A stretch of 64,000 nt of DNA. Origin: an uncultured Candidatus Saccharibacteria bacterium (GTDB taxonomy: Bacteria > Patescibacteriota > Minisyncoccia > Phycocordibacterales > SBAW01). The notes under the pieces were generated by a model, which did no database searches, was not told where the DNA came from, and saw nothing but the letters and a program-made list of their open reading frames with translations. The position numbers and the translations under genes were made by a program. This document shows, one piece after another, positions 40,098 to 58,645 of the stretch (positions are counted from its first letter, which is position 1; every line of letters begins with the position of its first letter). The stretch spans positions 240,746-304,745 of the forward strand of contig CAZTNI010000001.1 in NCBI GenBank assembly GCA_964615415.1, given 5' to 3'.

Positions 40098-40130
40098 AAG
40101 CCGCTCTTAAGGGAGCGGCTTTTCTTTTTA
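40098..40130 (+). terminator. Rho-independent terminator, member of the repeated GCCGCTCC…GGAGCGGCTTTTCTTTT family
   Basis: AAGCCGCTCTTAAGGGAGCGGCTTTTCTTTTT. Confidence 0.75.
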
Positions 40131-40615: not shown

Positions 40616-40619
40616 CAAA

Positions 40620-40652
40620 AGCCGCTCCCTTGGGAGCGGCTTTTTCTTTTGG
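40620..40652 (+). terminator. Rho-independent terminator, same repeated family
   Basis: AAAAGCCGCTCCCTTGGGAGCGGCTTTTTCTTTT. Confidence 0.75.
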
Positions 40653-44000: not shown

Positions 44001-47000
44001 AAAACAGATCAAGGCGCTAATACTGTTAATGAGTCGAAGTTCTATTACGATTCGCAGTCATTTGGCTCCGCAACAGTAGGTAACCTTACAAAAGCAGAAA
44101 AGAGAATTAACCCAACTACTTTTGCAAGTACTACTAAGACATACAACAGCTACGGTTTACCGACCCAACAAAAGGATGAGAATAATAACGCTACTACGTA
44201 TGTATACGATGCGTTTAATCTCTACCCTGCAACCTCTACCAATGCCCTAAGTCAAAGTACAAAATATCAGTACAACTATGCGCTGGGCAAACTTGCTACA
44301 ACTACTGACTCAAATAATCAGACCTGGGTTAAAAAGTATGACGGCCATGGCCGTTTGCTTGAAGTGCAAGTGCCTGACCCTGCAACCTCAACTGCGCGTG
44401 TAATAAAGACTACCTACACGTATACCGATACTCCGCTTGCTGTGTCGGTAAAAAAGAGTTCGTACCTCGACGCTACTAACATAGTAGATTCTTACACGTA
44501 CTACGATGGTTTGGGGCATGCGATTCAAACCAAACAAGAAGCAGAAGGGGGAGAGTGGATTACTAAAGATGTAAGTTACAACGTGCGTGGTCGAGTATTC
44601 ACAGAAACACTTCCGTATCCAACAACAAATTACGTAAAGAGTTCTCCTACTGCTACTACAACCCTGTATACCAACTACATGTATGATCCGCTTAACCGAG
44701 TAACAGAATCACACACGGTCGTTGGCACTACAACAAATACGTATGATGACTGGAAGAAGACAGTTACGAACCCGCTTGGCATTGCGAAGTCATTCTATAA
44801 CGATGCGTACGATAATCTAGTTCGTGTAGATGAGACTAATAGCGGCTCTACTTATACAACGTTATATACGTGGGATGGAAATGGAGCGCTAACGGGTATA
44901 ACGGATGCTCTCAGTAACATACGCTCGTTTACGTACGACATGTTGGGTCGTCGCACTCAGGCAACAGACCTGCGTGCTTCTGGAGACGGCACATACGGTA
45001 CGTATACATATACCTACGATCCGGCGGGGAACATGAAGTCTAAGGTAACTCCGGTTGGGTCAACCATTAACTACACCTACGATGCGCTTAATCGCCTCAA
45101 GACAGAAGATTATACAGGTCAGGCAGGCACAGAAACCACCTATACCTATGACGCATGTACGCTCGGTGCAGGGAAGTTGTGCGTGGCAAGCAGTACTGCT
45201 TCAGTCGTGGGGTATGCATATACCCCAGCGGGTCTTGTTAAGACTGCAACCACAACTGTGCTAGGCACGCCAACCGTATTTACTACATCGAGTACATATG
45301 ATCGGCAGGGAAATCAGACAACTCTTACATACCCTGACGGTATGGAAGTGAAATACACCTATAATGCGGGTGGCTACATAGAAACCGTTCAGAAGAAAGA
45401 GGCGAGCGAAGGATCATTCTCAAACATAGTGTCTAACTTTAATTACTCACCCGTTGGTCAAGTAAGTCGAACCGAGTATGCAAATGGAGCGGTAACTACC
45501 AATACGTATGATCCTGCCACTCTCTACAGACTCAGCAATAAACAAACTATTCTCGGTGGTTCGCAGCAGGCACAAAACATCAGCTACAGCTACGACGCTT
45601 TGGGAAATATTTTGCAAGTTACCGATGCGTCAAATACGGCAGCTGCAAAAACGGTTAACTACTCGTACGACGACTTGTCTCGCCTTGTTACTGCATCTAC
45701 CACCAACGCAACAAGTAGTCCGAACTATAGATACACATATGCATACAATGCTCTGGGTAATATCACGAACGGTCCACTCGGGGTCTACACATACGCAGGT
45801 ACGAACTATGCAAACCCGCATGCAGCAACTGCTATAGCGACAACTTCAGGAGGTGGAGGAGGCGTTGCGACAACCACGACTCATACAGTATTTGCCGACG
45901 CCCTTACCCCAGGATGGAACGATTGGTCATACAATGCGGTACTCGACCTTAACGCAACTACCACGTACGCAGGAAGCAAAGCTATCAAGGTTACCTACTC
46001 AGTCGCTTGGGGTGGTTCATATTTGCAAAAGACTGCTGGAATCCAAGTTGGTACCTCTACTGCGCTTCAACTCGCCTTGCGTTCAACAAGTTCATCGCCT
46101 GACGTTACCATCGATATATATGGTACCAACGACGCGTATCTTGGATACGCTGACCCTACTGACTATATCGGCGGTCCTATTGCTGCTAACACGTGGTATC
46201 TACTTACTATCCCGTTTTCAGATTTTGGCGCCACTTCAACTATCAGTGGCATCGTAGTTGCACGCGACACTCCAGGTGTTCTCTATATCGATGAATTAAA
46301 GACTGTTGCCACATCTACAGGCGGAGGAGGTTCTGTGGCAACTACCACGCTTGCATACGATGCGAACGGCAACCTTACCTCAGACGGTACATTTACCTAT
46401 ACATGGGATTATCTCAACCGCATGACTCAGTCTGGTAACGGTACTGCCACATCAACCTATGCATACGATCAAGATGGTAATCGCGTAAAAATAGTTGAAG
46501 CAGGCGTCACCACAATCTTCCCAAACAAGTTCTACAACGCAATGCTTGGTGGTGCTGGCACTACTACAAAGCACATATATGCGGGAGACATGCTCCTTTC
46601 TACGATAGAGAATACAAATACTGCCGCTGCGACAACCACTACACACACGGTGTTTACCGACGCACTTGCTGCGGGCTGGAACGACTGGTCGTATAACGCT
46701 ACGCTCAACGTTAACGAAACTGCAGTTGTCTACAGCGGTGCTAAGTCAGCAAAGATCACATACAGCGCACCATGGGGCGGAGCATACATACAAAAAACGG
46801 GTGTAAATGTATCAACCTCTACGGCACTGCAGTTCGCAATCCGCCAACCTGTCACAACTGTTGATGTCGACCTCGATATCTATGGCGCAAACGATCAATA
46901 CCTTGGATACGTTAATATTGAGAATTTTGTGCCCGGAGGTGTGCTCCTTTCCAATACATGGCAGGTGGCAACGATACCGCTGTCAGCTATGGGCGCAACT

Positions 47001-48059
47001 TCTACGATCACGGGTATTGTGTTTGCGCGAGATGCAACAGGTACTCTGTATTTGGATGATATAAAATTCATCGCAACCTCTACCTCAGGAAGCCCTGCAA
47101 CATCAACGGTCCGCTACATCCATACAGATCATCTTGGTGGTACCAACGTTGTCACAAATGCGAGTGGTGCGGTGGTAGAAACAATTGACTACTATCCATA
47201 TGGAGAGACTCGTCTTGATGCGAAGGTTGGGACTTATGGAGGAGAAAAGAATAAATATGCGGGTACTGAGTATGACGCAGGTAGTGGTTTGAACTACATG
47301 CAGGCACGTTATCAAAGCCCAACTCGCGGAAACTTCATATCGCAGGATCCGGTGTTCTGGGAGATTGATATTACTAATGATGGTAAAGCAGTTCTCTCAA
47401 ACCCTCAACTTCAAAATTCATACAGTTATGCTGGCAATAATCCAATCGTAAGTAAAGATCCATCTGGAAGATTCCTAGACACCATTCTCGATTTAGGATT
47501 TATAGCTTACGATGTATACAAAGTTGGCCAGGCGGCCTTCACTGGCGGAAATGTTGGTGAGCAGTTAGGATACTTAGGGCTTGATGTAGCTGGGGCAGCC
47601 GTACCATTTGTCACAGGTGCGGGAGTAGCTGCTAGAGGAGTTAAAGCTGCTAATGCGGTAGCAGATGCAGCCGGCGGCGCCAACAAAGCAGGTAATGCTG
47701 CTCAGGCGGCTAATACCGCAGTAAAATCACTACCGGACTCGACGTTGGTCTGCAGAGGAGGAGGTTGCTCGGTGGAAAGTTTTATTAAGGGCAGTAATGA
47801 AGGAAGGGCGGGTCTTAATCCAAGTCCAACAACTCCTCTTACTGGGGTATCAGTAAATATGGGGGGTTCAAAAAATGCACTTATTAGCAATTTGCCTGGT
47901 GACTACCCTAAAGCAGGTTTTACATTCACCAATCAAATACAAAAACTTGGTGGCAATGCAGTATCTAGCCCTTCTCTTAATAATCCTTTCCACGGTCTAA
48001 TCAACGGCCTCAGTGCCCAGCAATTGAATAATATTTTTAAAGTAGAAAAGATAAAATAA
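41019..48059 (+). CDS. Giant secreted Tc-toxin/RHS-type polymorphic toxin: SpvB/TcB-like N-terminal domain, FG-GAP-like region, YD/RHS repeats, RHS repeat-associated core, unassigned C-terminal toxin domain
   Basis: 2346-aa ORF with a signal peptide and an acidic linker. The SpvB motif (…GLQPDLSLLYNSLQYEDGSLVGFGWGLTIPYIERLNRTGVDRLY…) is followed by many YD repeats (YTYDALNRL, YSYDALGNI, YAYDANGNL, YAYDQDGNR). The RHS core reads RYIHTDHLGGTNVVTNASGAVVETIDYYPYGE…ARYQSPTRGNFISQDPVFW. Confidence 0.85.
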   Translation: MNFFPLLIAGPGKIALRLMGMILVVSFFLSPLAPVFAQEADPGAGSETPVAEELLTEEPSEADTSTETSEEPVVEESDPTPTDPTEETSSEEVSESEISELTEESEEDSLLEEELEPEEDSLMSSSGGDQGTGEAVDYAAAGAQAKVDAFGALVQKIQIEVPPGRNGLQPDLSLLYNSLQYEDGSLVGFGWGLTIPYIERLNRTGVDRLYTDNYFSSSMYGELASTSVPGEYRPRTENGDFVKFVFQNNIWTAYDKQGTQYKYGSTTGSQVYDTASSTQVGVWMLQEVRDTNNNYIKYNYQKSDNQIYPSTIIYTGNESTDGIFSVSFSRQTRPDPIFSYKYGFLVETKDRINQITVAVSSSTVRSYALAYTSGNNGYRSMLSSVTETYVNPDGTSVAYAPWQFAYTNQTLSFTDQVEKEEGGYRSPAFVRTDLNGNGLLDIVASFVDWSPAVQKNLRVINNGNFSFTSSGTFSPGSTDVQVTWANANPSPSWLVSSDPGVRLMDINGDALPDVVQSYVCQVTCSTSIQQYFLNLGNGQWQSTAATTTGWNYIVRDQPGTSIPHATIAIIGNVNGDTVDDIFPYEVNYFASTGGGSPRWTSNQGQLVDLNHDGLDDAFARFGTTASTSINRGGTIGITTASTSFSYTATFNGPSAYEDNVDKGIRIMDINNDGLPDLVRSYLFSGGYSSHGDGQYVPQDTSSSTQIYINTGVGWTRMQNPPAIPVISNPSSQSGFWTGAQLIEAVWDQDGDGDAEIGTYTNNMSRQDLLKQITLPTGGYVYATSTPTTQQFTGSQAHHPNSVVPVWTVSEITHDDGNGTRETSRYSYKDGTLWYGGINNRKYAGFASTTESYYGLTTKYYHQGDETDSSRGEYQDSFAKIGKMYRVERTNNDGVVYAKTIYKWDQATTTYGNVFAKLVQKVDMEYNGDGTHKDRAETYTYDNASGNLTEKKEWGEVTASDDGSFSDTGSDIFVTTYTYATVNASSTVSLLASQLKTDQGANTVNESKFYYDSQSFGSATVGNLTKAEKRINPTTFASTTKTYNSYGLPTQQKDENNNATTYVYDAFNLYPATSTNALSQSTKYQYNYALGKLATTTDSNNQTWVKKYDGHGRLLEVQVPDPATSTARVIKTTYTYTDTPLAVSVKKSSYLDATNIVDSYTYYDGLGHAIQTKQEAEGGEWITKDVSYNVRGRVFTETLPYPTTNYVKSSPTATTTLYTNYMYDPLNRVTESHTVVGTTTNTYDDWKKTVTNPLGIAKSFYNDAYDNLVRVDETNSGSTYTTLYTWDGNGALTGITDALSNIRSFTYDMLGRRTQATDLRASGDGTYGTYTYTYDPAGNMKSKVTPVGSTINYTYDALNRLKTEDYTGQAGTETTYTYDACTLGAGKLCVASSTASVVGYAYTPAGLVKTATTTVLGTPTVFTTSSTYDRQGNQTTLTYPDGMEVKYTYNAGGYIETVQKKEASEGSFSNIVSNFNYSPVGQVSRTEYANGAVTTNTYDPATLYRLSNKQTILGGSQQAQNISYSYDALGNILQVTDASNTAAAKTVNYSYDDLSRLVTASTTNATSSPNYRYTYAYNALGNITNGPLGVYTYAGTNYANPHAATAIATTSGGGGGVATTTTHTVFADALTPGWNDWSYNAVLDLNATTTYAGSKAIKVTYSVAWGGSYLQKTAGIQVGTSTALQLALRSTSSSPDVTIDIYGTNDAYLGYADPTDYIGGPIAANTWYLLTIPFSDFGATSTISGIVVARDTPGVLYIDELKTVATSTGGGGSVATTTLAYDANGNLTSDGTFTYTWDYLNRMTQSGNGTATSTYAYDQDGNRVKIVEAGVTTIFPNKFYNAMLGGAGTTTKHIYAGDMLLSTIENTNTAAATTTTHTVFTDALAAGWNDWSYNATLNVNETAVVYSGAKSAKITYSAPWGGAYIQKTGVNVSTSTALQFAIRQPVTTVDVDLDIYGANDQYLGYVNIENFVPGGVLLSNTWQVATIPLSAMGATSTITGIVFARDATGTLYLDDIKFIATSTSGSPATSTVRYIHTDHLGGTNVVTNASGAVVETIDYYPYGETRLDAKVGTYGGEKNKYAGTEYDAGSGLNYMQARYQSPTRGNFISQDPVFWEIDITNDGKAVLSNPQLQNSYSYAGNNPIVSKDPSGRFLDTILDLGFIAYDVYKVGQAAFTGGNVGEQLGYLGLDVAGAAVPFVTGAGVAARGVKAANAVADAAGGANKAGNAAQAANTAVKSLPDSTLVCRGGGCSVESFIKGSNEGRAGLNPSPTTPLTGVSVNMGGSKNALISNLPGDYPKAGFTFTNQIQKLGGNAVSSPSLNNPFHGLINGLSAQQLNNIFKVEKIK

Positions 48060-48060
48060 T

Positions 48061-48513
48061 ATGAAAATAAAAAATGAATCAGATTTTGTAAATGCAGATA
48101 GTAAATTGAATCTGCGGAAAATCTCTTCTAATGAAATAGAGATAACCGACGTCTATGACATCTGGGATGGGCCTTTAAGTGGTAGCTGTCTCTGGGAAAA
48201 TAAAGATTATTATTTTTTCTCTTTTGATCAACTTGAGGATGATAAATCTGGTGATCGCTGGCCAAGAAAATACATTTTAGTTAGCTTAGATTCTGAGCAA
48301 AAGCAAACTGAAGAAGAATTAAAAAACCTTTATTCGGCTTTGAAAAAAGGTGAATTTACCGCCGAAGAATATAGCAACAAATTAGAAAGAATTCCAAAGT
48401 TACAAATAGAAAATAAGCAAATTGTTGGATGGTTTGATTCTGAAGATGTTGAAAAAAATGGAACTCCAACAAGATTCATGCAATCCTATTTTTCGTGGAA
48501 AGAAAAGAATTAA
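48061..48513 (+). CDS. Candidate cognate immunity protein of the RHS C-terminal toxin
   Basis: 150-aa ORF starting 2 nt after the RHS stop. It is markedly AT-rich relative to the RHS gene. That is the typical position and composition for an RhsI-type immunity gene. Confidence 0.55.
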   Translation: MKIKNESDFVNADSKLNLRKISSNEIEITDVYDIWDGPLSGSCLWENKDYYFFSFDQLEDDKSGDRWPRKYILVSLDSEQKQTEEELKNLYSALKKGEFTAEEYSNKLERIPKLQIENKQIVGWFDSEDVEKNGTPTRFMQSYFSWKEKN

Positions 48514-48608
48514 TTCTCTATTTTTGCTTCCATAAAACGCCCATACTGTTACAAACTTTATGGGGTCTGACCCCAATTCCAAATCTAAAGAATAATAAAA
48601 AATAAATT

Positions 48609-48797
48609 ATGCATATTAAAATTGATAAGGATGTAGGTACGGCTTATATTTACATAGCGGACAACCCAGAAGATCTAAAAGGCTCTGTCCGTTCCGAGCC
48701 AGTCAACTCAGATCTGATTATTGACTACACTCCAGACGGAAAATTATTTGGAATTGAAATTCTTAACCTGAAACTTCTCGATCTTGGTGAGAAATGA
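48609..48797 (+). CDS. DUF2283-like small protein (toxin-antitoxin associated family)
   Basis: MHIKIDKDVGTAYIYIADNPEDLKGSVRSEPVNSDLIIDYTPDGKLFGIEILNLKLL resembles DUF2283 (antitoxin partner of DUF4258). Confidence 0.5.
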   Translation: MHIKIDKDVGTAYIYIADNPEDLKGSVRSEPVNSDLIIDYTPDGKLFGIEILNLKLLDLGEK

Positions 48798-48818
48798 AAG
48801 CTAATTGAGAGGCTAAGT

Positions 48819-49144
48819 ATGATTAATAATTCACGGGATAAATATATTAATCTTGCAGTTCAGTATGGTGAGTATAAAAAGAATGGAGAAGCTGAACTTG
48901 CCAACAAGGTACATCAGCAACTCTCTGAAACATCCGACGCAATAAAAAAATTGATCCAGAGGGTTTTGATTTCATTGCTAGTCCTATGAATCACCCTGAA
49001 CCATTTGTAAGACTGTGGGCCGCAACTGATTCAAAAGATTATAAACCAAAGGAGGCGAGAGCAACTTTACGGGAACTCAAATACAACAAAGACGTAGCGG
49101 GGCTAGATGCTTGGGCGTTGTTAAGCATGTGGGGAGAGGAATAA
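48819..49144 (+). pseudogene. Frameshifted (or phase-variable) ~105-aa gene split at an A7 homopolymer
   Basis: Frame 1 (ATG 48819) reads MINNSRDKYINLAVQYGEYKKNGEAELANKVHQQLSETSDAIKK and terminates after the A7 run at 48943-48949. The -1/+1 frame continues as …IDPEGFDFIASPMNHPEPFVRLWAATDSKDYKPKEARATLRELKYNKDVAGLDAWALLSMWGEE* (stop at 49142-49144). Confidence 0.5.
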
Positions 49145-49253: not shown

Positions 49254-49288
49254 CGCCCCGACACTTCATGTGTCGGGGCTGTTTTTTA
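49254..49288 (-). terminator. Rho-independent terminator immediately downstream of the minus-strand gene 49286-49837
   Basis: CGCCCCGACAC-TTCA-TGTGTCGGGGC hairpin with flanking T/A tracts. Confidence 0.7.
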
Positions 49289-49837
49289 TCCTGCTTTTTC
49301 GACTGCGGCGCGGGCAGTTTCTTCCATCGTCTTGTAGATAGGGAAATCGTACCCCAGAAGGAGCGTAGTGTTACGCTCTACCATGTCGAGTCCGGAAAAT
49401 CCTTCCTCGCCGCCTATAACGACACGAGTCTCTTTTCGGTAGAACATGTGCGCTCGCCACTCGCCAAGTTCGCCGTAGGAGTCGCGGCCGTAGGGGCCGG
49501 CTTCCGGTGCACGGGGCTCGCGTTGCTCTTCTGCCCAAAAGAGGATGCAGCCTCGCGGGGTGTGCCACGCGGCCCGTGCAAGGTAGTGCCGCTCCCAGTC
49601 GAGCTGTCGATCAAAGATGTCCGCACCCTCTTGCAGGAAGTAGCCAGCAAGTGGGTGTGTGTTATTCCACCTTGCGGGGCAGGCTATGACGCAGTTGCCA
49701 TCCGTCGCTTGGCGCAGGTGCACGACCATTTCGTGTTGCCAGTCGCCGCCACCGCGGATAGGCCCGCCAAGGAAGAAGAAGGGAAGGTCTTCGAATTCCC
49801 GAAGGTCGGGACAATATTTCGGAACAATAATGCGCAT
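49286..49837 (-). CDS. Nucleoside 2-deoxyribosyltransferase-like (Rossmann/SLOG-type) protein, GC-rich
   Basis: N-terminal FFFLGGPIRGGGDW motif typical of the nucleoside 2-deoxyribosyltransferase/LOG-like fold. GC content is much higher than the flanking AT-rich genes. The family assignment is tentative. Confidence 0.45.
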   Translation of the reverse strand: MRIIVPKYCPDLREFEDLPFFFLGGPIRGGGDWQHEMVVHLRQATDGNCVIACPARWNNTHPLAGYFLQEGADIFDRQLDWERHYLARAAWHTPRGCILFWAEEQREPRAPEAGPYGRDSYGELGEWRAHMFYRKETRVVIGGEEGFSGLDMVERNTTLLLGYDFPIYKTMEETARAAVEKAG

Positions 49838-49917
49838 GTGTTCTCCTTTTGTATGTACCTAGCGGCACTATACCGAAAGAGAAGTGTATTTGCCAGGCGT
49901 ATACTTACACTCAATAT

Positions 49918-50139
49918 ATGAGGACGATAAGCGTGCGCGTAACGGCGGGAGCAAAGAAAGAAAAGGTGGAGGAACTTGCAAACGGCCGGCTTGCTATCGC
50001 TGTTAAAGAAAAGCCCGAGCAAGGCAAAGCAAACGAACGGGTGTTGGAGTTGGTTGCAGCACACCTTAAAGTGCCGCGTAAAAAAGTAAGCATTACCCGC
50101 GGCAGCAAAAGCCCGTCTAAAATAATTACCGTCCGATGA
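49918..50139 (+). CDS. DUF167/YggU family protein
   Basis: MRTISVRVTAGAKKEKVEEL…LAIAVKEKPEQGKANERVLELVAAHLKVPRKKVSITRGSKSPSKIITV matches UPF0235/YggU. The start was trimmed to the ATG at 49918. Confidence 0.6.
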   Translation: MRTISVRVTAGAKKEKVEELANGRLAIAVKEKPEQGKANERVLELVAAHLKVPRKKVSITRGSKSPSKIITVR

Positions 50140-50750: not shown

Positions 50751-51002
50751 ATGTTGGATTCTTTTTTAATCGTATTGGTCCAGGCTGGAATCTCAGTGAT
50801 TGTAGGAGTAATGGCAATTTTTTACAGGAAACGCCTGACTCGTGAATTTACAGCAAAATTTATCCAGGTATATGGAAATTTTTTCAATTCTAAAAAAGTT
50901 TTTACTTCAAAGTTCTTCAATGATTATTTAGAAGTGGGTTTTGTAGTATTTGGAATTTGCGCCTTGATATTTGCTTTTTTCAATATTGTTAGGTCGATAT
51001 AA
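50751..51002 (+). CDS. Small 2-TM membrane protein (orphan immunity-like)
   Basis: 83 aa, AT-rich. Confidence 0.4.
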   Translation: MLDSFLIVLVQAGISVIVGVMAIFYRKRLTREFTAKFIQVYGNFFNSKKVFTSKFFNDYLEVGFVVFGICALIFAFFNIVRSI

Positions 51003-51015
51003 AATATTTAAGTCG

Positions 51016-51339
51016 ATGAGCAAGACTTTTAGCGAAAAGGTGGTGGAACTCGCACTTTCTGTACCGCCTGGGCGGGTGACTACTTATGGCCGGATTGCTA
51101 TTGCGGCAGGGGGAGGAAGCATGGCCTCGCAAAGCATTTCTAATATTCTTTGGCGCGCGCAGCAGGAAAGAGGAATAAAAAATATACCCTGGCACCGGAT
51201 AGTCTATGCCGATGGAAAAGTGTGGCTCGACGAAGAGCATAAAAAGAAGAGACTGGCGTTGTATAAGAAGGAGAAAATTGTCTTAGATAAAAATAATAGG
51301 ATAGAAAATTTCGTAGATAAACTTTGGGAGTTTAAATAA
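51016..51339 (+). CDS. Alkyltransferase-like protein (ATL; Ogt C-terminal DNA-binding domain with Trp replacing the active-site Cys)
   Basis: VTTYGRIA…PWHRIV: the Ogt PCHRV motif carries W instead of C, which is diagnostic of ATL DNA-damage sensors. Confidence 0.7.
   Translation: MSKTFSEKVVELALSVPPGRVTTYGRIAIAAGGGSMASQSISNILWRAQQERGIKNIPWHRIVYADGKVWLDEEHKKKRLALYKKEKIVLDKNNRIENFVDKLWEFK
51301..51339. repeat. Left copy of a 39-bp imperfect direct repeat flanking the DUF2726 gene (right copy 51901-51939)
   Basis: ATAGAAAATTTCGTAGATAAACTTTGGGAGTTTAAATAA aligns with CCAGAAAACTTCGTAGACAAACTTTGGAAGTTTAAGTAG at about 32 of 39 positions. Both copies span the stop codon of the preceding gene. Confidence 0.75.
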
Positions 51340-51364
51340 AGAAATATGCTAGGCTAGGAGCTAT

Positions 51365-51916
51365 ATGGATGAGCTACAGATTATATCCTCAATTTCGCCA
51401 CAAACTCTCGGCATTTTAATTTTTGGAATAGTGATATTTGTTGCCGCTGTGTTGTTGGGATTGTCTGTAAAGGAAAAAGTAAACACACCGGTTACCAAAA
51501 TACCAAGCTTTTATAAGAAGAAAGAATATCTTTTTGACTCCATCTCAGAATTTAATTTACATAAAACTCTTGTAGAACTTTTTAGCGATCGTTTTTATAT
51601 TTTCTCTCAAATTCAATACAGTCACCTGGTCGAACCTAAACCAGATCTTTGGTGGGAAATGCGAAGACATAGAAGCAGAATTGATAGAAAATCCGCAGAT
51701 TTTGTCTTGTGTGACAAAGAACGTGTTGTACCACAGCTCGTGATCGAATTAGACGGCAGTAGTCATGAGCTAGAAAGGAAGCAAGAAAGAGATCAATTTA
51801 TAAACGAGACTATGGAAGCAGTGGGTCTTCCTATCCTGCATCTATATACGAATCGATTGAATAAGGACTACGTAAAAGAGGAGGTGGAAAGAATATTGTC
51901 CCAGAAAACTTCGTAG
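51365..51916 (+). CDS. DUF2726-type (PD-(D/E)xK/Vsr-like) nuclease domain protein with N-terminal TM
   Basis: ADFVLCDKERVVPQLVIELDGSSHE…RDQFINETMEAVGLPILHL. Confidence 0.6.
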   Translation: MDELQIISSISPQTLGILIFGIVIFVAAVLLGLSVKEKVNTPVTKIPSFYKKKEYLFDSISEFNLHKTLVELFSDRFYIFSQIQYSHLVEPKPDLWWEMRRHRSRIDRKSADFVLCDKERVVPQLVIELDGSSHELERKQERDQFINETMEAVGLPILHLYTNRLNKDYVKEEVERILSQKTS

Positions 51917-52007
51917 ACAAACTTTGGAAGTTTAAGTAGTAAACCCTATCTTCCTCGGCGTGACACAAGGCTCTGTAGGGGAGCGGAGGATGGAACGTTC
52001 GTAGCAC

Positions 52008-52856
52008 TCACTGCACTTGCTTCAATGTTTCAATTCTTTTTTTCCAAACAGACACGTACTCTTTTTTTGTGTTCTCGCAAGAGGATAACCAGTCTCTAAA
52101 ATCTCTCTTTTGTCCTTTGTCCAAAATATATCTATCAATGTATTCAATTAAAAAAGCCGAGGTCCTTAGACACATGCTTATGATCCAAAACCGTTCATTG
52201 TAAGATTCTTCTTTATAGTAGTAAGGATTTCCGTGAAGTATCTCAGAAATGCTTGAATATATTTCATATGTTCTTTCAATTCCAAAAACTTTTATAGAGT
52301 ATGAAGAGAATCGATTCATATTCGCAGGAGTCAAAAGAATTTCTTTTTGTGCAGCAAAAAGTTTATTATCTCTCATCCAATTTTTTGATAATAATTCAGG
52401 ATTTTGTGGAAAATCTGGTTTTGCTCTTGCGATGAAATCTTTATAGAGCTTAAAAGTCTCATCGTAATAAGGATATTTTCCATTACTATTTTTCAACGTC
52501 TTTGCAATCAATAGAGAATGTGCGATGCAGAAAATTGCTTTGTCGTCGTTACTCGGGCAGTTAATTTCTAGATGTACAAAGTTGGCGTAAATGTCCAACA
52601 GAGTGCGTACATTTGGTAACAAATAAATATATTTCTTTTCATCTTCACTTTGCGCTTCAACACCAAGAAAATCTAAAATTTCTTTGTATCGTTTCAGTGC
52701 TCGTATCTGATATATCCGAATAGCAGAGTCGGCAGCTGAAATAGTAAAAGCCTCCTCTTGAAGAGGAGTGAATACCTTAATCCTTTCATCAAAAAGAATA
52801 GAGGCTTGTTTGATAAGGTCTAGTTGGCTATCAATTACTTCCTTGTCTGACTTCAT
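52008..52856 (-). CDS. Hypothetical protein, AT-rich orphan (282 aa)
   Basis: Long ORF on the minus strand with strongly AT-biased composition. No recognisable motif. Confidence 0.5.
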   Translation of the reverse strand: MKSDKEVIDSQLDLIKQASILFDERIKVFTPLQEEAFTISAADSAIRIYQIRALKRYKEILDFLGVEAQSEDEKKYIYLLPNVRTLLDIYANFVHLEINCPSNDDKAIFCIAHSLLIAKTLKNSNGKYPYYDETFKLYKDFIARAKPDFPQNPELLSKNWMRDNKLFAAQKEILLTPANMNRFSSYSIKVFGIERTYEIYSSISEILHGNPYYYKEESYNERFWIISMCLRTSAFLIEYIDRYILDKGQKRDFRDWLSSCENTKKEYVSVWKKRIETLKQVQ

Positions 52857-53406: not shown

Positions 53407-53475
53407 TTGACCCTCCTTGGGTCGCCTAGGGTTGGAACGGAATCCGTGCGTACTATGCCATAGGTAGCATATGCT

Positions 53476-53515
53476 GACAAATAGAAAATATGTGGTAGTG
53501 TAGCGGCAGATTCAA
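53476..53515 (+). promoter_or_regulatory. Promoter/5'-UTR module TGACAAA-N-TGTGGTAGTGTAGCGGCAGA, duplicated at 54068-54108
   Basis: TGACAAATAGAAAATATGTGGTAGTGTAGCGGCAGATTC aligns with TGACAAACATAAAAATTGTGGTAGTGTAGCGGCAGACTTC at about 35 of 40 positions. Confidence 0.6.
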
Positions 53516-53537
53516 AACAAGTCCTTTGGAGGTACCC

Positions 53538-54029
53538 ATGATCGACATTCGTTCTGACTCGGCCGACCCGCGTGCGGCAAGGTTGAGCAACTTTACCGAG
53601 CGGCACTTCATCCTTGATGGTGTGCTGTGCAACTCGCTCGAAGGCTTCTTGCAGGGGCTTAAGGCAGAAGCTCTTGAAGTGCAGTGTGCTATTTGCAAGC
53701 TGGTGGGTATCGATGCAAAACAGGCTGGTAATGTGCTTGTAGTCAGAGATCCCCATTTTCTGTATTGGGAAGATGATGCTGTTGCTCGCGATGAAGTTGG
53801 CTACTTTGAACTGCTGACAAGAGCCTACGATGCGGCGTACGACCAGGACCCGACTTTTCGGGAAGACTTGCTTGCAACGGGGCACGAAGAGTTGCGCTAC
53901 ACGGTGGGCAGGTATGATCCTCTTGCAACGGTTCTTACCGAAACAGAATTTCTCTACCAGCTGTACCGTCTGCGTGCCCGAGCACATCGCGAACCAGTGG
54001 CCCAGCAGGAGCTGCCCGGCATTCGTTAA
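53538..54029 (+). CDS. NADAR (YbiA/DUF1768) family protein
   Basis: LSNFTERHFILDGVLCNSLEGFLQGLK matches the NADAR signature. GGAGG SD 5 nt upstream of the ATG. Confidence 0.6.
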   Translation: MIDIRSDSADPRAARLSNFTERHFILDGVLCNSLEGFLQGLKAEALEVQCAICKLVGIDAKQAGNVLVVRDPHFLYWEDDAVARDEVGYFELLTRAYDAAYDQDPTFREDLLATGHEELRYTVGRYDPLATVLTETEFLYQLYRLRARAHREPVAQQELPGIR

Positions 54030-54042
54030 ATGTGGTAGGTAT

Positions 54043-54072
54043 AAAGGCCGCTCCTCCCAGGGCGGCCTTTTT
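54043..54072 (+). terminator. Rho-independent terminator (variant of the repeated family)
   Basis: AAAGGCCGCTCCTCCCAGGGCGGCCTTTTT. Confidence 0.65.
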
Positions 54073-54133
54073 GCTGACAAACATAAAAATTGTGGTAGTG
54101 TAGCGGCAGACTTCTTTACCACGGAGAAACGCC

Positions 54134-55072: not shown

Positions 55073-55108
55073 AGCCGCTCCCTCACAAGGGAGCGGCTTT
55101 TCTTTTTT
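55073..55108 (+). terminator. Rho-independent terminator, repeated family
   Basis: AGCCGCTCCCTCACAAGGGAGCGGCTTTTCTTTTTT, followed by a GTGACAAA-N17-TATAGT promoter. Confidence 0.75.
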
Positions 55109-55814: not shown

Positions 55815-55836
55815 TTCCTCGTTCCCGCGATACTAC

Positions 55837-55866
55837 GCCGCTCCGTAAGGAGCGGCTTTTTCTTTT
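55837..55866 (+). terminator. Rho-independent terminator, repeated family
   Basis: GCCGCTCCGTAAGGAGCGGCTTTTTCTTTT, followed by a GTGACAAA-N17-CATACT promoter. Confidence 0.75.
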
Positions 55867-56288: not shown

Positions 56289-56322
56289 CGCCGCTCCCTA
56301 AAGGGGAGCGGCTTTTCTTTTT
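56289..56322 (+). terminator. Rho-independent terminator, repeated family
   Basis: GCGCCGCTCCCTAAAGGGGAGCGGCTTTTCTTTTT. Confidence 0.75.
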
Positions 56323-56345: not shown

Positions 56346-57041
56346 ATGAAAGCAGTATTTATTATTCTTGCAGCAATTATTGGAGTGGTAGGAGCTATTT
56401 GGTATTTCTCTCCGAGCGGCCCTGGCGGAGCGCAGTCACAAAACTCGCAAACCGACCTTTTTGGGTATAGCACCACAACAAATAACGGTTCAGATGTCGC
56501 CGGAGCACAAACACAAACGGGCGCTGTGCAGCAAGGTTCGCAAACTACTACTAACAATAAAGTCATGCAAGCAACACTCAAAACAACTAAGGGCGACATC
56601 GTTATCGAATTTTTTGGCACCGATGCGCCAAACACCGTCGCGAATTTTGCAAAACTCGCGCAAGAAGGATTTTACAACGGCACCAAGTTCCATCGCGTTA
56701 TCGCGGGCTTCATGATCCAAGGCGGCGACCCACTTACGAAAGATGACTCTCAAATGGCACGCTGGGGTACCGGCGGTCCGGGCTATCAGTTTGCAGACGA
56801 AATCCACGCAAACAACCGCAACGTCGTTGGTACTATCTCTATGGCGAATGCAGGTCCGAATACGAACGGCAGCCAGTTCTTTATCAACACTGCTAACAAT
56901 AACTTTCTCGACACAAAGCACACGGTTTTTGGCAAGGTGGTAAAGGGTATGGAGGTTGTGGCCGCTATTGAAGCAACTGCTACAGGCCAGGCTGACCGCC
57001 CGGTTGAGCCTATGGTCATCACGAGCGTTACGGTACAGTAG
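56346..57041 (+). CDS. Peptidyl-prolyl cis-trans isomerase, cyclophilin type, membrane-anchored/secreted
   Basis: FHRVIAGFMIQGGDP and SMANAGPNTNGSQFFI are cyclophilin signatures. N-terminal TM plus a Q/T-rich linker. Confidence 0.85.
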   Translation: MKAVFIILAAIIGVVGAIWYFSPSGPGGAQSQNSQTDLFGYSTTTNNGSDVAGAQTQTGAVQQGSQTTTNNKVMQATLKTTKGDIVIEFFGTDAPNTVANFAKLAQEGFYNGTKFHRVIAGFMIQGGDPLTKDDSQMARWGTGGPGYQFADEIHANNRNVVGTISMANAGPNTNGSQFFINTANNNFLDTKHTVFGKVVKGMEVVAAIEATATGQADRPVEPMVITSVTVQ

Positions 57042-57045
57042 AGTA

Positions 57046-57390
57046 ATGCGAGTAGGGAGGCGAGCACACTACTTAACTCATAAAGAAACAGCGCGCACAC
57101 TCGTGCATGCACGCATTGCACACTTAAACCAGTACTACCAAGTACCGATCCGCAAGGTATTTATTAAAAACCACCGCAGTCGGTGGGGTAGCTGCTCGTC
57201 TAAAGGTAATTTAAATTTTAATTACCGCGTGGCACTCTTGCCGCAAGAGCTGGTTGACTATGTTGTGGCGCACGAGTTGTGTCATTTAAAAGAGTTTAAT
57301 CACTCACAAAAATTTTGGGAGCTGGTTGCGCAGACGGTACCGGCACATAAAGAGTTGCGTCGGCAATTGTTGCGCATCCCGCTGCGTTAA
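57046..57390 (+). CDS. YgjP/DUF45-like M48-family metal-dependent hydrolase (short form)
   Basis: HEXXH motif in VAHELCHLKEFNHSQKFW. The start was trimmed to the ATG at 57046. Confidence 0.6.
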   Translation: MRVGRRAHYLTHKETARTLVHARIAHLNQYYQVPIRKVFIKNHRSRWGSCSSKGNLNFNYRVALLPQELVDYVVAHELCHLKEFNHSQKFWELVAQTVPAHKELRRQLLRIPLR

Positions 57391-58605: not shown

Positions 58606-58645
58606 CTAACCCGCTCTACCAAGAGCGGGTTTTTTCTTTATTTTG
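58606..58645 (+). terminator. Rho-independent terminator
   Basis: AACCCGCTCTACCAAGAGCGGGTTTTTTCTTTATTTT. Confidence 0.7.

What the first reader, a model, noticed from the sequence alone, without database searches (positions are those of the whole stretch)
51016..51939. Alkyltransferase-like (PWHRIV) gene followed by a DUF2726 nuclease gene inserted between 39-bp direct repeats
The ATL gene carries Trp in place of the Ogt active-site Cys (PWHRIV), making it a DNA-damage sensor rather than a repair enzyme. Its last 39 nt including the stop (51301-51339) are repeated with about 82% identity after the DUF2726 gene (51901-51939, ENFVDKLWEFK*/…DKLWKFK*). So the DUF2726 gene (PD-(D/E)xK/Vsr-like, with an N-terminal TM) looks like a cassette inserted with target duplication, or recombined in at the 3' end of ATL. 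ATL plus a membrane-tethered nuclease is an unusual pairing.
Basis: seen in the sequence. Interest (0 to 1): 0.55.

Follow-up and report, generated by a model that had tools for sequence, protein, structure and literature searches.

The report
Nuclease gene inserted behind ATL gene
In a tiny-celled groundwater-type bacterium (Paceibacteria), a small membrane-anchored nuclease-family gene was recombined in directly behind a DNA-damage-sensor (ATL) gene and left a dead 39-base copy of that gene's end as a scar; this is an ordinary footprint of gene gain, not a new two-gene system.

Summary
The ATL gene (51016-51339, PWHRIV) is followed 25 nt later by a TM+DUF2726 gene (51365-51916). The last 39 nt of ATL recur 600 bp downstream at 32/39 identity; none is expected by chance, and an independent assembly carries the same repeat.

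The second copy is a real relic of an ATL 3' end. It reads ENFVDKLWKFK* in the ATL frame, carries the rare NFVD variant of this lineage, has Lys at an invariant Glu, and has no ORF upstream.

DUF2726 is a lineage-specific addition. None of about 90 other ATL loci has it, and ATL's downstream neighbours are heterogeneous. DUF2726 homologues (at most 62% identical) sit in variable contexts without such repeats. No recombinase lies within 10 kb.

ATL itself is mosaic: against its closest relative the 5' 168 nt are 68% identical and the 3' 150 nt are 90% identical, with the break at about 51187.

Best reading: a recombinational insertion with displacement or duplication of the ATL end (homology-anchored illegitimate, or single-crossover), not a transposon-type target duplication and not a conserved ATL-nuclease module. 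No empty site was found.

Two weak hints remain. A related ATL is followed by a DUF559 gene, and a distant Cys-type MGMT gene precedes a DUF2726 gene. Interest is low to moderate.

The parts
50977..51005 (+). Promoter-like site (TTTTCA-17-TAAAAT) just upstream of ATL. It is the likely start of an ATL-DUF2726 transcript.
   Evidence: Consensus scan only, so weak. No terminator-like site was found between 51000 and 52000.
51016..51339 (+). ATL (alkyltransferase-like) gene, 107 aa, with PWHRIV in place of PCHRV.
   Evidence: PF01035 E=1.7e-12. Best PDB matches are Atl1 and the Vibrio ATL. 1685 homologues, mostly 105-aa Paceibacteria proteins.
51187..51339 (+). 3' segment of ATL that shares recent ancestry with the ATL genes of L084 and L086; the mosaic breakpoint lies at the PWHR codons.
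   Evidence: Window vs L084: left 168 nt 68% identical, right 150 nt 90% identical, best-split Fisher p=2.3e-6. Third-codon-position identity is 0.40 vs 0.82. Other relatives show no such excess.
51301..51339 (+). Repeat copy 1: the functional last 12 codons plus stop of ATL (IENFVDKLWEFK*).
   Evidence: The tail motif is conserved in more than 100 family members, with F99, L103 and E105 invariant.
51340..51364 (+). 25-nt leader of the inserted gene, with ribosome-binding site AGGAG at 51356-51360, 4 nt before the ATG.
   Evidence: Read from the sequence.
51365..51916 (+). Inserted gene: single-pass membrane anchor plus DUF2726 PD-(D/E)xK-fold domain, 183 aa. The family-conserved core ends at L178 (51896-51898). 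The last codons and the stop are supplied by repeat copy 2.
   Evidence: Pfam. All 30 invariant columns of a 35-member family alignment are retained, including D112, E128, D130 and H134. AF2 pLDDT 86.5. Foldseek hits BstEII, TnsA and I-Bth0305I. GC is 37% against about 49% for the genome.
51398..51466 (+). Codons for the transmembrane helix (residues 12-34). Charges are -2 before it and +4 after it, so the nuclease domain is predicted to be cytoplasmic.
   Evidence: AF2 helix 12-34. Charge count. The topology is inferred from the positive-inside rule.
51901..51939 (+). Repeat copy 2: a non-coding relic of an ATL 3' end (..PENFVDKLWKFK*), overlapping the DUF2726 stop.
   Evidence: 32/39 identical to copy 1. 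4 of the 5 differences within the 11 shared codons are silent, and the fifth turns the invariant Glu into Lys. Many stop codons lie upstream in that frame. The relic groups with the NFVD tails of L084 and L086 (31-33 of 36 identical).
51940..52007 (.). GC-rich (56%) spacer between the relic and the convergent next gene; possibly original flanking DNA.
   Evidence: GC by feature. No tRNA or Rfam match. No match in any fetched locus.
52008..52856 (-). Context only: the convergent 282-aa gene of a small DUF5677-related family. It is not a recombinase.
   Evidence: 91 relatives at E<=0.001. 7 of 38 aligned members hit PF18928 (best E=5e-8); the LAGLIDADG hit (E=0.009, below cutoff) is isolated to one member.

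Best explanation
The 39-nt repeat is the scar of one recombination event. That event placed a horizontally acquired, AT-rich TM-DUF2726 gene (its ribosome-binding site plus the ORF, about 560 nt) immediately behind the ATL gene of this Paceibacteria genome.

Shown:
- Copy 1 completes the working ATL reading frame.
- Copy 2 is a dead, displaced or duplicated ATL 3' end.
- The DUF2726 gene is an addition peculiar to this lineage.
- The ATL gene is a mosaic whose last ~150 nt share recent ancestry with two other genomes.

Inferred mechanism:
- Incoming DNA was anchored by homology in the conserved 3' part of ATL. It was joined at its other end by illegitimate or very short-homology recombination just upstream of a resident ATL tail (homology-facilitated illegitimate recombination). 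Alternatively, a small circle carrying an ATL-tail fragment integrated by a single crossover.
- Either route leaves one intact ATL, then the cargo, then a truncated tail.
- The event may have happened in this lineage, or in a donor from which the whole block was later transferred.

Present state, also inferred: ATL and DUF2726 are co-transcribed from the ATL promoter. The DUF2726 ORF borrows its stop codon from the relic. The relic has no function, and the two proteins need not work together.
For: Relic identity:
- The ATL-frame reading is ENFVDKLWKFK*.
- The tail motif is conserved across the family, and the NFVD variant occurs only in this gene's closest relatives.
- Lys replaces the invariant Glu105, and stop codons lie upstream in that frame.

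Insertion:
- tblastn and a family HMM find no DUF2726 in the 83 ATL loci first fetched (L004-L086).
- Close relatives at 71-85% identity (L084, L172, L175-177, L178, L179, L180) carry unrelated downstream genes.
- 67 downstream neighbours fall into 49 Pfam families.
- DUF2726 is 37% GC against about 49% for the genome. Its nearest homologue is only 62% identical.
- DUF2726-family genes have no conserved neighbours.

Recombination rather than transposition:
- ATL has a mosaic breakpoint at about 51187 (68% vs 90% identity, p=2.3e-6; third positions 0.40 vs 0.82). It is specific to the window, L084 and L086 group.
- No recombinase Pfam family is present in the genes within 10 kb on either side.
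- No inverted repeats lie at the insert ends.
- L040 shows the mirror outcome: a 162-nt 5' ATL relic, then one inserted gene, then an intact ATL. This is what insertion-duplication predicts for a 5' fragment.

Precedent:
- HFIR and single-crossover integration of small DNAs have been shown experimentally (PMC3240628).
Against: - No empty-site allele or donor arrangement was found, so neither the direction nor the mechanism is observed directly.
- The relic belongs to the same NFVD 3' clade as copy 1. A simple model of 'foreign 3' segment plus native tail' therefore does not fit cleanly: either the mosaic predates the insertion, or the whole block including the relic arrived together.
- Homology of about 39 nt is short for RecA-dependent crossover.
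- The copy 1 vs copy 2 differences (1 change specific to copy 1 and 3-4 specific to copy 2) fit an in-situ duplication followed by neutral decay as well as they fit two diverged alleles. The synonymous excess has p about 0.05 and is not decisive.
- The right-hand junction falls within 5 nt of the end of the conserved DUF2726 core, which every model has to ascribe to selection or chance.
- A related ATL (L174) is also followed directly by a Vsr-clan gene. This hints at something more specific than random insertion.
Confidence: 0.6

Rival explanations
1. Remnant of a second ATL copy. The ancestor carried ATL - DUF2726 - ATL, through a tandem paralogue or a duplicated block. A later deletion removed all of the second ATL except its last ~39 nt, stopping at the end of the DUF2726 coding core.
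For: The relic has the lineage's own NFVD tail. Some genomes carry two ATL or MGMT genes: L044 and L045 come from one MAG, and L009 and L019 have a distant second copy. The tight junction at the DUF2726 C-terminus is what selection would allow for a deletion.
Against: No tandem ATL pair flanking a gene was seen in about 90 loci. The model needs two events plus a deletion endpoint inside a window of at most 5-30 nt. It does not explain the ATL mosaic or the L040 mirror case, where the sequence upstream of the relic is not a copy of the inserted gene.
Confidence: 0.12
2. True mobile cassette with target-site duplication. A transposase, integrase or Cas1-like enzyme acting in trans made staggered cuts about 39 nt apart in the ATL tail and inserted a roughly 561-nt cassette. 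Equivalently, the repeats are the attL and attR sites of a site-specific element that targets the 3' end of ATL.
For: Direct repeats that contain the 3' end and stop codon of the target gene are typical of integrase-type elements (established knowledge). A second gene 2 kb away is flanked by a ~41-nt repeat at exactly the same 600-bp period.
Against: No recombinase lies within 10 kb, and there are no terminal inverted repeats. About 55 DUF2726-family loci show no comparable flanking repeat of an upstream gene end. The family is almost absent from viral contigs. The second repeat looks like a duplicated promoter; such repeats are common in Patescibacteria, with spacings clustered at 560-710 nt. 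The L040 duplication is 162 nt, not 39.
Confidence: 0.08
3. Functional two-gene module. An MGMT-fold lesion sensor (ATL) works with a Vsr-clan endonuclease that incises next to the bound lesion, or the pair acts in defence. On this view the adjacency is selected and the relic is incidental.
For: Three adjacencies of an MGMT-fold gene followed by a Vsr-clan gene were seen: the window; L174 (ATL 81% identical, DUF559 gene 13 nt after the stop); and L088 (Cys-type MGMT, TM-DUF2726 gene 22 nt after the stop). The window pair is probably co-transcribed.
Against: None of the 83 ATL loci first fetched has a DUF2726 hit, and only 1 of 90 loci in a later motif scan (L174) has a Vsr-like E-x-D-G motif within 2 kb. 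Only 1 of 82 DUF2726 loci has an MGMT-fold gene. The three nuclease partners differ (with or without a TM anchor, no BLAST similarity). The DUF2726 family is conserved in many other contexts. PADLOC finds nothing.
Confidence: 0.1
4. Homing-type selfish nuclease. Vsr-clan genes (I-Bth0305I is a homing endonuclease of this clan) target the conserved DNA of the ATL 3' end and spread by double-strand-break repair, co-converting the adjacent ATL 3' segment.
For: The ATL 3' 150 nt are homogenised among the window, L084 and L086, and partly L174, while the 5' parts are saturated. This resembles a co-conversion tract. Two different Vsr-clan genes sit at the same spot behind related ATLs. Fold similarity to the I-Bth0305I catalytic domain has probability 0.98 and target-normalised TM-score 0.72. 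A review places DUF2726 with Vsr, DUF559 and that homing enzyme, and notes mobile-element neighbourhoods (PMC3424549).
Against: Homing does not create target duplications. The presumed target is present twice and intact. L084 has the shared 3' segment but no nuclease gene. The TM-DUF2726 family is well conserved (50-60% identity across hundreds of proteins) and membrane-anchored, unlike typical fast-evolving homing genes. Its genomic contexts are otherwise unrelated to ATL.
Confidence: 0.07
5. Assembly artefact: a chimeric join of two strains at a shared k-mer.
For: The source is a metagenome-assembled genome.
Against: The same structure appears in an NCBI contig, in a Logan contig seen in 4 samples, and in an independent Logan assembly of another run that differs by one SNP. 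The two copies differ at 7 of 39 positions, so they share no long k-mer.
Confidence: 0.02

Closest known systems
Alkyltransferase-like (ATL) proteins: S. pombe Atl1, T. thermophilus TTHA1564, E. coli YbaZ (eAtl), Vibrio vpAtl
   Same: A stand-alone MGMT C-terminal DNA-binding domain of about 105 aa. Trp replaces the acceptor Cys in the P-C-H-R motif. The T-Y-G tyrosine is conserved. Atl1 and vpAtl are the best solved matches.
   Different: Only about 30% identical to the solved ATLs. The 'arginine finger' position (Atl1 Arg39; A-R-Q/H/A-V-G) reads A-S-Q-S-I in this whole Paceibacteria family, so no Arg is there. The family has its own conserved C-terminal tail, I-x-N-F-R/V-D-x-L-W/F-E-F. Lesion binding and hand-over to nucleotide excision repair are untested.
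DUF2726 / DUF559 / Vsr clan of PD-(D/E)xK nucleases, including the homing endonuclease I-Bth0305I
   Same: The Pfam DUF2726 match is well above threshold, with a DUF559 co-hit. The predicted fold matches restriction-endonuclease-fold proteins (BstEII, TnsA, I-Bth0305I). The acidic and His residues are invariant in the family. The grouping is described in PMC3424549.
   Different: It has an N-terminal membrane anchor, shared by a large Patescibacteria subfamily of about 170 aa. No profile match to any solved structure by sequence. No defence-system model matches. Substrate and role are unknown.
Homology-facilitated illegitimate recombination, and 'C-terminal displacement' at Rhs, CDI and T6SS effector loci
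   Same: New DNA is anchored in a conserved gene segment, and the previous 3' end is pushed downstream and kept as a relic. The recipient gene becomes a mosaic.
   Different: Here the displaced piece is only ~39 nt and duplicates the new tail rather than differing from it. The cargo is an unrelated gene, not a toxin tip with its immunity gene. ATL is not a polymorphic toxin, although an Rhs/YD toxin gene lies 3 kb upstream (41019-48059).
Campbell-type insertion-duplication (single crossover of a circular DNA carrying a gene fragment)
   Same: The geometry is exactly as predicted. A 3' fragment gives intact gene, cargo, 3' relic (the window). A 5' fragment gives 5' relic, cargo, intact gene (L040). 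Single crossovers of small DNAs are documented (PMC3240628).
   Different: The homologous segment would be very short (about 39 nt). No circle or plasmid source is known.
attL/attR repeats of integrase-driven islands and prophages inserted in the 3' end of a gene
   Same: Imperfect direct repeats of tens of nt that include the target gene's last codons and stop, with the target gene kept intact.
   Different: The element is one 560-nt gene with no integrase in it or within 10 kb.

Membership tests
ATL (alkyltransferase-like) proteins | MGMT C-terminal DNA-binding domain (PF01035) | tested here: met
   E=1.7e-12, 47.4 bits against a cutoff of 27. phmmer hits Atl1 3gva and vpAtl 2kif.
ATL (alkyltransferase-like) proteins | Acceptor Cys of P-C-H-R replaced (Trp or Ala), so no alkyl transfer | tested here: met
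   IPWHRIV at residues 57-63. P58, H60 and R61 are invariant; the residue between them is W in most of the 32 aligned family members and F or Y in the rest, never Cys.
ATL (alkyltransferase-like) proteins | Stand-alone domain without the Ogt/Ada N-terminal domain | tested here: met
   107 aa; the domain spans residues 5-87.
ATL (alkyltransferase-like) proteins | Arginine finger that fills the gap left by the flipped base (Atl1 Arg39, AGT Arg128) | tested here: not met
   The aligned position is Gln39 (or Ser38): 'MASQSIS' against 'YA-RQVG', 'YA-RHVG' and 'AS-RAVG'. The same holds across the whole family.
ATL (alkyltransferase-like) proteins | Binds O6-alkylguanine and recruits nucleotide excision repair | not testable with these tools
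   Needs biochemistry.
DUF2726 / Vsr-clan PD-(D/E)xK nucleases | Pfam DUF2726 match above the gathering score | tested here: met
   76.4 bits against 24.7; DUF559 24.6 bits against 20.6.
DUF2726 / Vsr-clan PD-(D/E)xK nucleases | Restriction-endonuclease fold | tested here: met
   AF2 pLDDT 86.5. Foldseek top hits are BstEII (E=1.1e-3), TnsA, 3ijm, and I-Bth0305I (probability 0.98, target-normalised TM-score 0.72). The E-values are weak.
DUF2726 / Vsr-clan PD-(D/E)xK nucleases | Catalytic acidic and His residues retained | tested here: met
   D112, E128, D130 and H134 are invariant in 35 sequences and present here. Assigning them as catalytic is an inference.
DUF2726 / Vsr-clan PD-(D/E)xK nucleases | Nuclease activity | not testable with these tools
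   Needs an enzyme assay.
Transposon / IS with target-site duplication | Transposase gene in the element or nearby, and terminal inverted repeats | tested here: not met
   No such Pfam family within 10 kb on either side. No inverted repeat pairs the ends 51340 and 51900.
Integrase-driven island (attL/attR) | Direct repeats that include the 3' end of the target gene | tested here: met
Integrase-driven island (attL/attR) | Tyrosine or serine recombinase gene | tested here: not met
   None among the Pfam families on record for the genes called within 10 kb. The 282-aa neighbour is DUF5677-like.
Diversity-generating retroelement (template repeat / variable repeat) | Repeat mismatches fall at adenines of the template copy; a reverse transcriptase lies nearby | tested here: not met
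   The mismatches are A/C, T/C, T/C, T/C, G/A, A/G, A/G. No reverse transcriptase is in the neighbourhood.
Free-standing homing endonuclease gene | Sits next to a conserved target whose flanks are co-converted | tested here: inconclusive
   The ATL 3' segment is homogenised among three genomes, but L084 lacks a nuclease gene.
Free-standing homing endonuclease gene | Insertion disrupts the recognition site, with no target duplication | tested here: not met
   The tail sequence is present twice and complete.
Conserved ATL-nuclease gene pair | Adjacency recurs across genomes beyond chance | tested here: not met
   0 of 83 ATL loci have a DUF2726 hit, and 1 of 90 (L174) has a Vsr-like motif. 1 of 82 DUF2726 loci has an MGMT-fold gene. 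ATL's downstream neighbours are heterogeneous.

The most novel reading that the evidence does not exclude
Small Vsr-clan nuclease genes (DUF2726, DUF559) in Paceibacteria preferentially land immediately behind MGMT-fold (ATL/Ogt-like) genes. This could be because they are homing-type selfish genes that use the unusually conserved ATL 3' DNA as target and anchor, which would explain the locally homogenised ATL 3' segment. It could instead be because a lesion sensor and a nicking nuclease form a previously unrecognised repair or defence pair. A more remote variant: the exact 600-bp period shared with the second flanked gene at 53470-54112 reflects a ruler-like cassette-insertion process.
Probability: 0.1. 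Interest if true: 0.6.

Novelty: new member of a known kind. Interest (0 to 1): 0.3.

Why it matters
As it stands, this is a clean and datable example of how ultra-small Patescibacteria genomes gain single accessory genes. A conserved gene end serves as the recombination anchor, the recipient gene is kept intact, and a short relic is left behind. That helps in annotating such genomes: the relic and the borrowed stop codon are easy to misread. It also adds to the picture of recombination-driven gene flux in organisms thought to depend on DNA uptake.

It would matter more if the weak recurrence of MGMT-fold gene followed by Vsr-clan nuclease gene proved real. That would point either to site-targeted selfish nucleases in CPR bacteria or to a new lesion-sensor and nuclease repair route.

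Separately, this large ATL subfamily lacks the canonical arginine finger, which is a testable oddity for DNA-repair specialists.

Tried and rejected
1. Empty site. Exact-protein look-ups of ATL, DUF2726 and the 282-aa neighbour returned only contigs with the same arrangement. The 80 species-representative ATL loci and 9 closer relatives share neither flank.

2. DUF2726 as a repeat-flanked mobile cassette. A scan of 80 metagenome loci found no flanking copy of an upstream gene end. The few flanking repeats (L113, L144, L152) are hairpins or multi-copy intergenic elements.

3. Phage origin. Only 2 distant hits in viral contigs. The PHROG hits have no known function.

4. Defence system. No PADLOC hit.

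5. DGR template and variable repeats. The mismatch pattern is wrong and there is no reverse transcriptase.

6. tRNA or small-RNA attachment site at the GC-rich spacer. There is no tRNA in 48-56 kb and no meaningful Rfam hit.

7. The 282-aa neighbour as a LAGLIDADG or mobility gene. The hit is spurious; the family is DUF5677-like, and there is no similarity to the genuine LAGLIDADG gene next to DUF2726 in L152.

8. Copy 1 as a promoter for DUF2726. There is no sigma-70-like match.

9. Extension of the repeat upstream (51288-51300). Only 7 of 13 positions match, which is not above AT-rich background (by eye).

10. Deciding which copy is native from tail phylogeny. 36 nt are too few: all pairwise distances are 2-5 differences.

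11. The shared 600-bp spacing. This is most probably coincidence. The other repeat is promoter-like, promoter-sized (~40 nt) and spans one small gene, which is the modal geometry (560-710 nt) in 908 kb of related loci. An exact match is still unlikely (roughly 0.2-0.5%) and remains unexplained.
Full report
**What is there.** The + strand carries a 107-aa gene at 51016-51339 and a 183-aa gene at 51365-51916, separated by 25 nt that contain AGGAG four bases before the ATG.
- The first protein matches the MGMT DNA-binding domain (PF01035, E=1.7e-12) and reads IPWHRIV where true transferases have PCHRV. Its best solved relatives are the ATL proteins Atl1 and vpAtl.
- The second protein matches DUF2726 (E=2.2e-21) with a DUF559 co-hit.
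- The last 39 nt of the first gene recur exactly 600 nt downstream with 32/39 identity. A degenerate 32-mer of the repeat has 0.00 chance matches in 100 shuffles.
- An independent assembly of a different sequencing run is identical over 5.4 kb apart from one SNP and has both copies.
The one correction is that copy 2 overlaps the last codons and the stop of the DUF2726 ORF.

**Organism and background.** Homologues of both proteins are overwhelmingly from Paceibacteria/Patescibacteria (CPR) metagenome bins. The window averages about 49% GC, but 48-53 kb is a patchwork of 31-38% GC genes. This stretch lies downstream of a 2346-aa Rhs/YD-repeat protein gene (41019-48059).

**Copy 2 is a relic of an ATL end.**
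- More than 100 ATL homologues end in the same motif (I-x-N-F-R/V-D-x-L-W/F-E-F-K/E/R). F99, L103 and E105 are invariant in a 32-sequence alignment.
- In the ATL frame copy 2 reads P-ENFVDKLWKFK-stop. It carries the rare Val variant, found among the top 60 listed homologues only in this gene, its two closest relatives and one more distant one (P0001-P0003, P0015).
- It differs from copy 1 by four silent changes, including TAA to TAG, and by one replacement that puts Lys at the invariant Glu.
- That frame is closed by stop codons upstream.
- It is therefore a non-functional fragment of an ATL gene from this same narrow clade. It is not a chance repeat or a regulatory motif.

**The DUF2726 gene is a lineage-specific addition.**
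- tblastn and a family HMM find no DUF2726 within 4 kb of ATL in the 83 ATL loci first fetched, 80 of them species-representative genomes.
- Nine closer relatives (71-85% identical ATL) have unrelated neighbours on both sides.
- The immediate same-strand downstream genes of 67 ATLs fall into 49 Pfam families: ferric reductase-like proteins, hydrolases, and occasionally the alkylation-repair genes Tag and AlkD.
- Conversely, the TM+DUF2726 protein belongs to a well-conserved Patescibacteria family of about 170 aa (245 hits). No member is more than 62% identical to this one. The family's neighbours are not conserved, and it is almost absent from viral contigs.
- The window protein keeps all 30 invariant columns, including D112, E128-x-D130 and H134.
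- AlphaFold2 (pLDDT 86.5) gives an N-terminal helix (12-34) and an alpha/beta core whose best structural matches are restriction-endonuclease-fold proteins: BstEII, TnsA and the I-Bth0305I catalytic domain. This agrees with the published grouping of DUF2726 with Vsr and DUF559 (PMC3424549).
- Charge distribution (-2 before the helix, +4 after) predicts a cytoplasmic nuclease domain (inference).
- The family-conserved sequence ends at L178 (51898), and the relic begins by 51903. The insert is therefore almost exactly 'ribosome-binding site plus ORF', and the ORF takes its stop codon from the relic.

**How it got there.**
- No transposase, integrase or reverse transcriptase family is recorded for any gene within 10 kb. 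No inverted repeats mark the insert ends.
- The 282-aa convergent neighbour belongs to a DUF5677-related family, and its sub-threshold LAGLIDADG hit is spurious.
- About 55 loci with close DUF2726 homologues show no comparable duplication of an upstream gene end.
- A codon-wise comparison shows that ATL is a mosaic. Against L084, the closest relative, the first 168 nt are 68% identical (third positions 0.40, essentially saturated). The last 150 nt are 90% identical (third positions 0.82). The best split is at about 51187, the PWHR codons (p=2.3e-6). The same holds against L086 and between L084 and L086.
- More distant relatives show no 3' excess, so this is not general constraint. Recombination has therefore exchanged the ATL 3' segment among lineages.
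- A second genome, L040, shows the mirror image: a 162-nt relic of the ATL 5' end, then one inserted membrane-protein gene, then an intact ATL.
- 'Intact gene, cargo, 3' relic' and '5' relic, cargo, intact gene' are the two textbook outcomes of insertion-duplication by recombination through a gene-end fragment. The different lengths (39 vs 162 nt) argue against a fixed staggered-cut duplication.
- The closest described precedents are homology-facilitated illegitimate recombination and the 'displacement' of effector or Rhs 3' ends (PMC5361080; PMC3240628).
- I therefore favour a homology-anchored recombinational insertion. My confidence that this is a recombination scar is about 0.85, and about 0.45 for this specific mechanism.

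**What stays unresolved.**
- Whether the event was in situ or happened in a donor.
- Which copy is 'native': the tail distances are only 2-5 differences in 36 nt.
- Whether the copies started identical. One change specific to copy 1 against three or four specific to copy 2 fits neutral decay of the relic as well as it fits two diverged alleles.

**Is ATL plus nuclease a functional pair?** Mostly no, as shown above, but two observations keep a small door open.
- L174, whose ATL is 81% identical, has a DUF559 (Vsr-like, no membrane anchor) gene starting 13 nt after the ATL stop. The contig ends inside that gene, so a relic cannot be checked.
- L088 has an 85-aa Cys-type MGMT-domain gene 22 nt upstream of a TM-DUF2726 homologue, with no repeats.
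- Against these stand the 83 first-fetched ATL loci with no DUF2726 hit, 90 ATL loci in which only L174 has a Vsr-like motif, and 82 DUF2726 loci with one MGMT-fold neighbour.
- These could be chance, or a weak sign of site preference (homing-like behaviour with co-conversion of the ATL 3' segment) or of functional coupling.
- Homing is disfavoured because it should not duplicate the target, because L084 shares the 3' segment without a nuclease gene, and because the family is conserved and membrane-anchored.

**An unexpected coincidence.**
- Scanning every spacing from 40 to 4000 nt, the window holds only two direct repeats of 29/34 or better, and both have a spacing of exactly 600.
- The second (53470-53512 vs 54070-54112, about 90%) flanks a Phage_30_3-family gene (53538-54029) and its terminator.
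- Each copy sits 23-27 nt upstream of a start codon and contains a TGACAA ... TGTGGTAGTGT arrangement, so it looks like a duplicated promoter.
- In 908 kb of other Patescibacteria loci such promoter or terminator repeats flanking single genes are common. They are about 40 nt long, and their spacings cluster at 560-710 nt.
- The similar length and approximate spacing are therefore expected. The exact equality is probably chance, but I could not explain it.

**Verdict.** This is a real feature, correctly described, and best read as an ordinary scar of recombinational gene gain next to a mosaic ATL gene. It is a new member of known kinds (an ATL family member, a DUF2726 family member, an insertion-duplication or displacement scar). 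Interest is low to moderate.

Noticed in passing
window 53470-53512 and 54070-54112: A second imperfect direct repeat (~41 nt, ~90%) with exactly the same 600-bp spacing flanks a Phage_30_3-family gene (53538-54029) plus its terminator. The copies look like duplicated promoters, each 23-27 nt upstream of a start codon. These and the finding's repeat are the only two repeats of 29/34 or better at spacings of 40-4000 nt in the window.
   Followed up: partly
L040 (CAYGEA010000026.1) 2479-2640, 2832-3389, 3515-3832: A mirror-image case in another Paceibacteria bin: a 162-nt relic of the ATL 5' end (~88% identical to the intact gene), then a single inserted 185-aa multi-pass membrane protein gene with no Pfam match, then an intact ATL.
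   Followed up: partly
L174 (logan SRR22868761_1126850) 1636-1974 and 1987-2250: An ATL 81% identical to the window's is followed 13 nt later by a DUF559 (Vsr-like) gene without a membrane anchor. The contig ends inside that gene, so a tail relic could not be looked for.
   Followed up: partly
L088 (Ga0182027_10546892) 78-335 and 358-864: An 85-aa Cys-type MGMT-domain protein (IPCHRV, PF01035 E=1.4e-31) lies 22 nt upstream of a TM-DUF2726 homologue, with no flanking repeats. It is the only MGMT-fold neighbour among 82 DUF2726 loci.
   Followed up: partly
window 51016-51339, residues 36-40; alignments A1 and A7: The whole Paceibacteria ATL family has M-A-S-Q-S where Atl1, vpAtl and Ogt-type proteins have the 'arginine finger' (A-R-x-V-G). 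No Arg or Lys is present at or next to that position.
   Followed up: partly
window 56346-57390 vs L175-L177 and the JGI 3300056388 contig: In relatives with an 81%-identical ATL, the gene sits with a Mu Gam-like gene and an 81-aa ORF between a peptidyl-prolyl isomerase gene and a YgjP-like gene. In the window those two genes are directly adjacent, 5 kb downstream of ATL. ATL's own genomic position is therefore not conserved.
   Followed up: no
window 41019-48059 and 48061-49144: A 2346-aa SpvB/Rhs/YD-repeat protein gene is followed by small low-GC ORFs (150 aa, a DUF2283 protein, and others). This is the usual layout of a polymorphic toxin with immunity or orphan genes. The finding lies in the variable, low-GC stretch downstream of it.
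   Followed up: no
window 52008-52856 (-): The 282-aa neighbour belongs to a small family (91 clusters in 1.8 billion representatives) related to DUF5677. R84, S204, H208 and W224 are invariant. Its function is unknown.
   Followed up: partly
window 49268-49921: A 58% GC island holds long overlapping ORFs on both strands (217 aa on + and 183 aa on -). Gene callers chose different strands in two assemblies (L001 vs L003). No Pfam hit for the minus-strand ORF.
   Followed up: no
L152 (Ga0172381_10016343) 2850-2913, 2947-3492, 3643-3706, 3762-4451: A distant DUF2726 gene without a TM anchor is flanked by a 64-nt direct repeat (~86%) and sits next to a genuine LAGLIDADG endonuclease gene and a pyrimidine-dimer-glycosylase-like gene. 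This may be a small cluster of selfish or repair nucleases.
   Followed up: no
window 40098-40129, 40619-40650, 55076-55107, 55835-55866, 56291-56322, 58608-58639: A family of similar GC-rich hairpins followed by T-runs (GCCGCTCCC...GGGAGCGGC TTTT). They are probably a shared intrinsic-terminator type.
   Followed up: no
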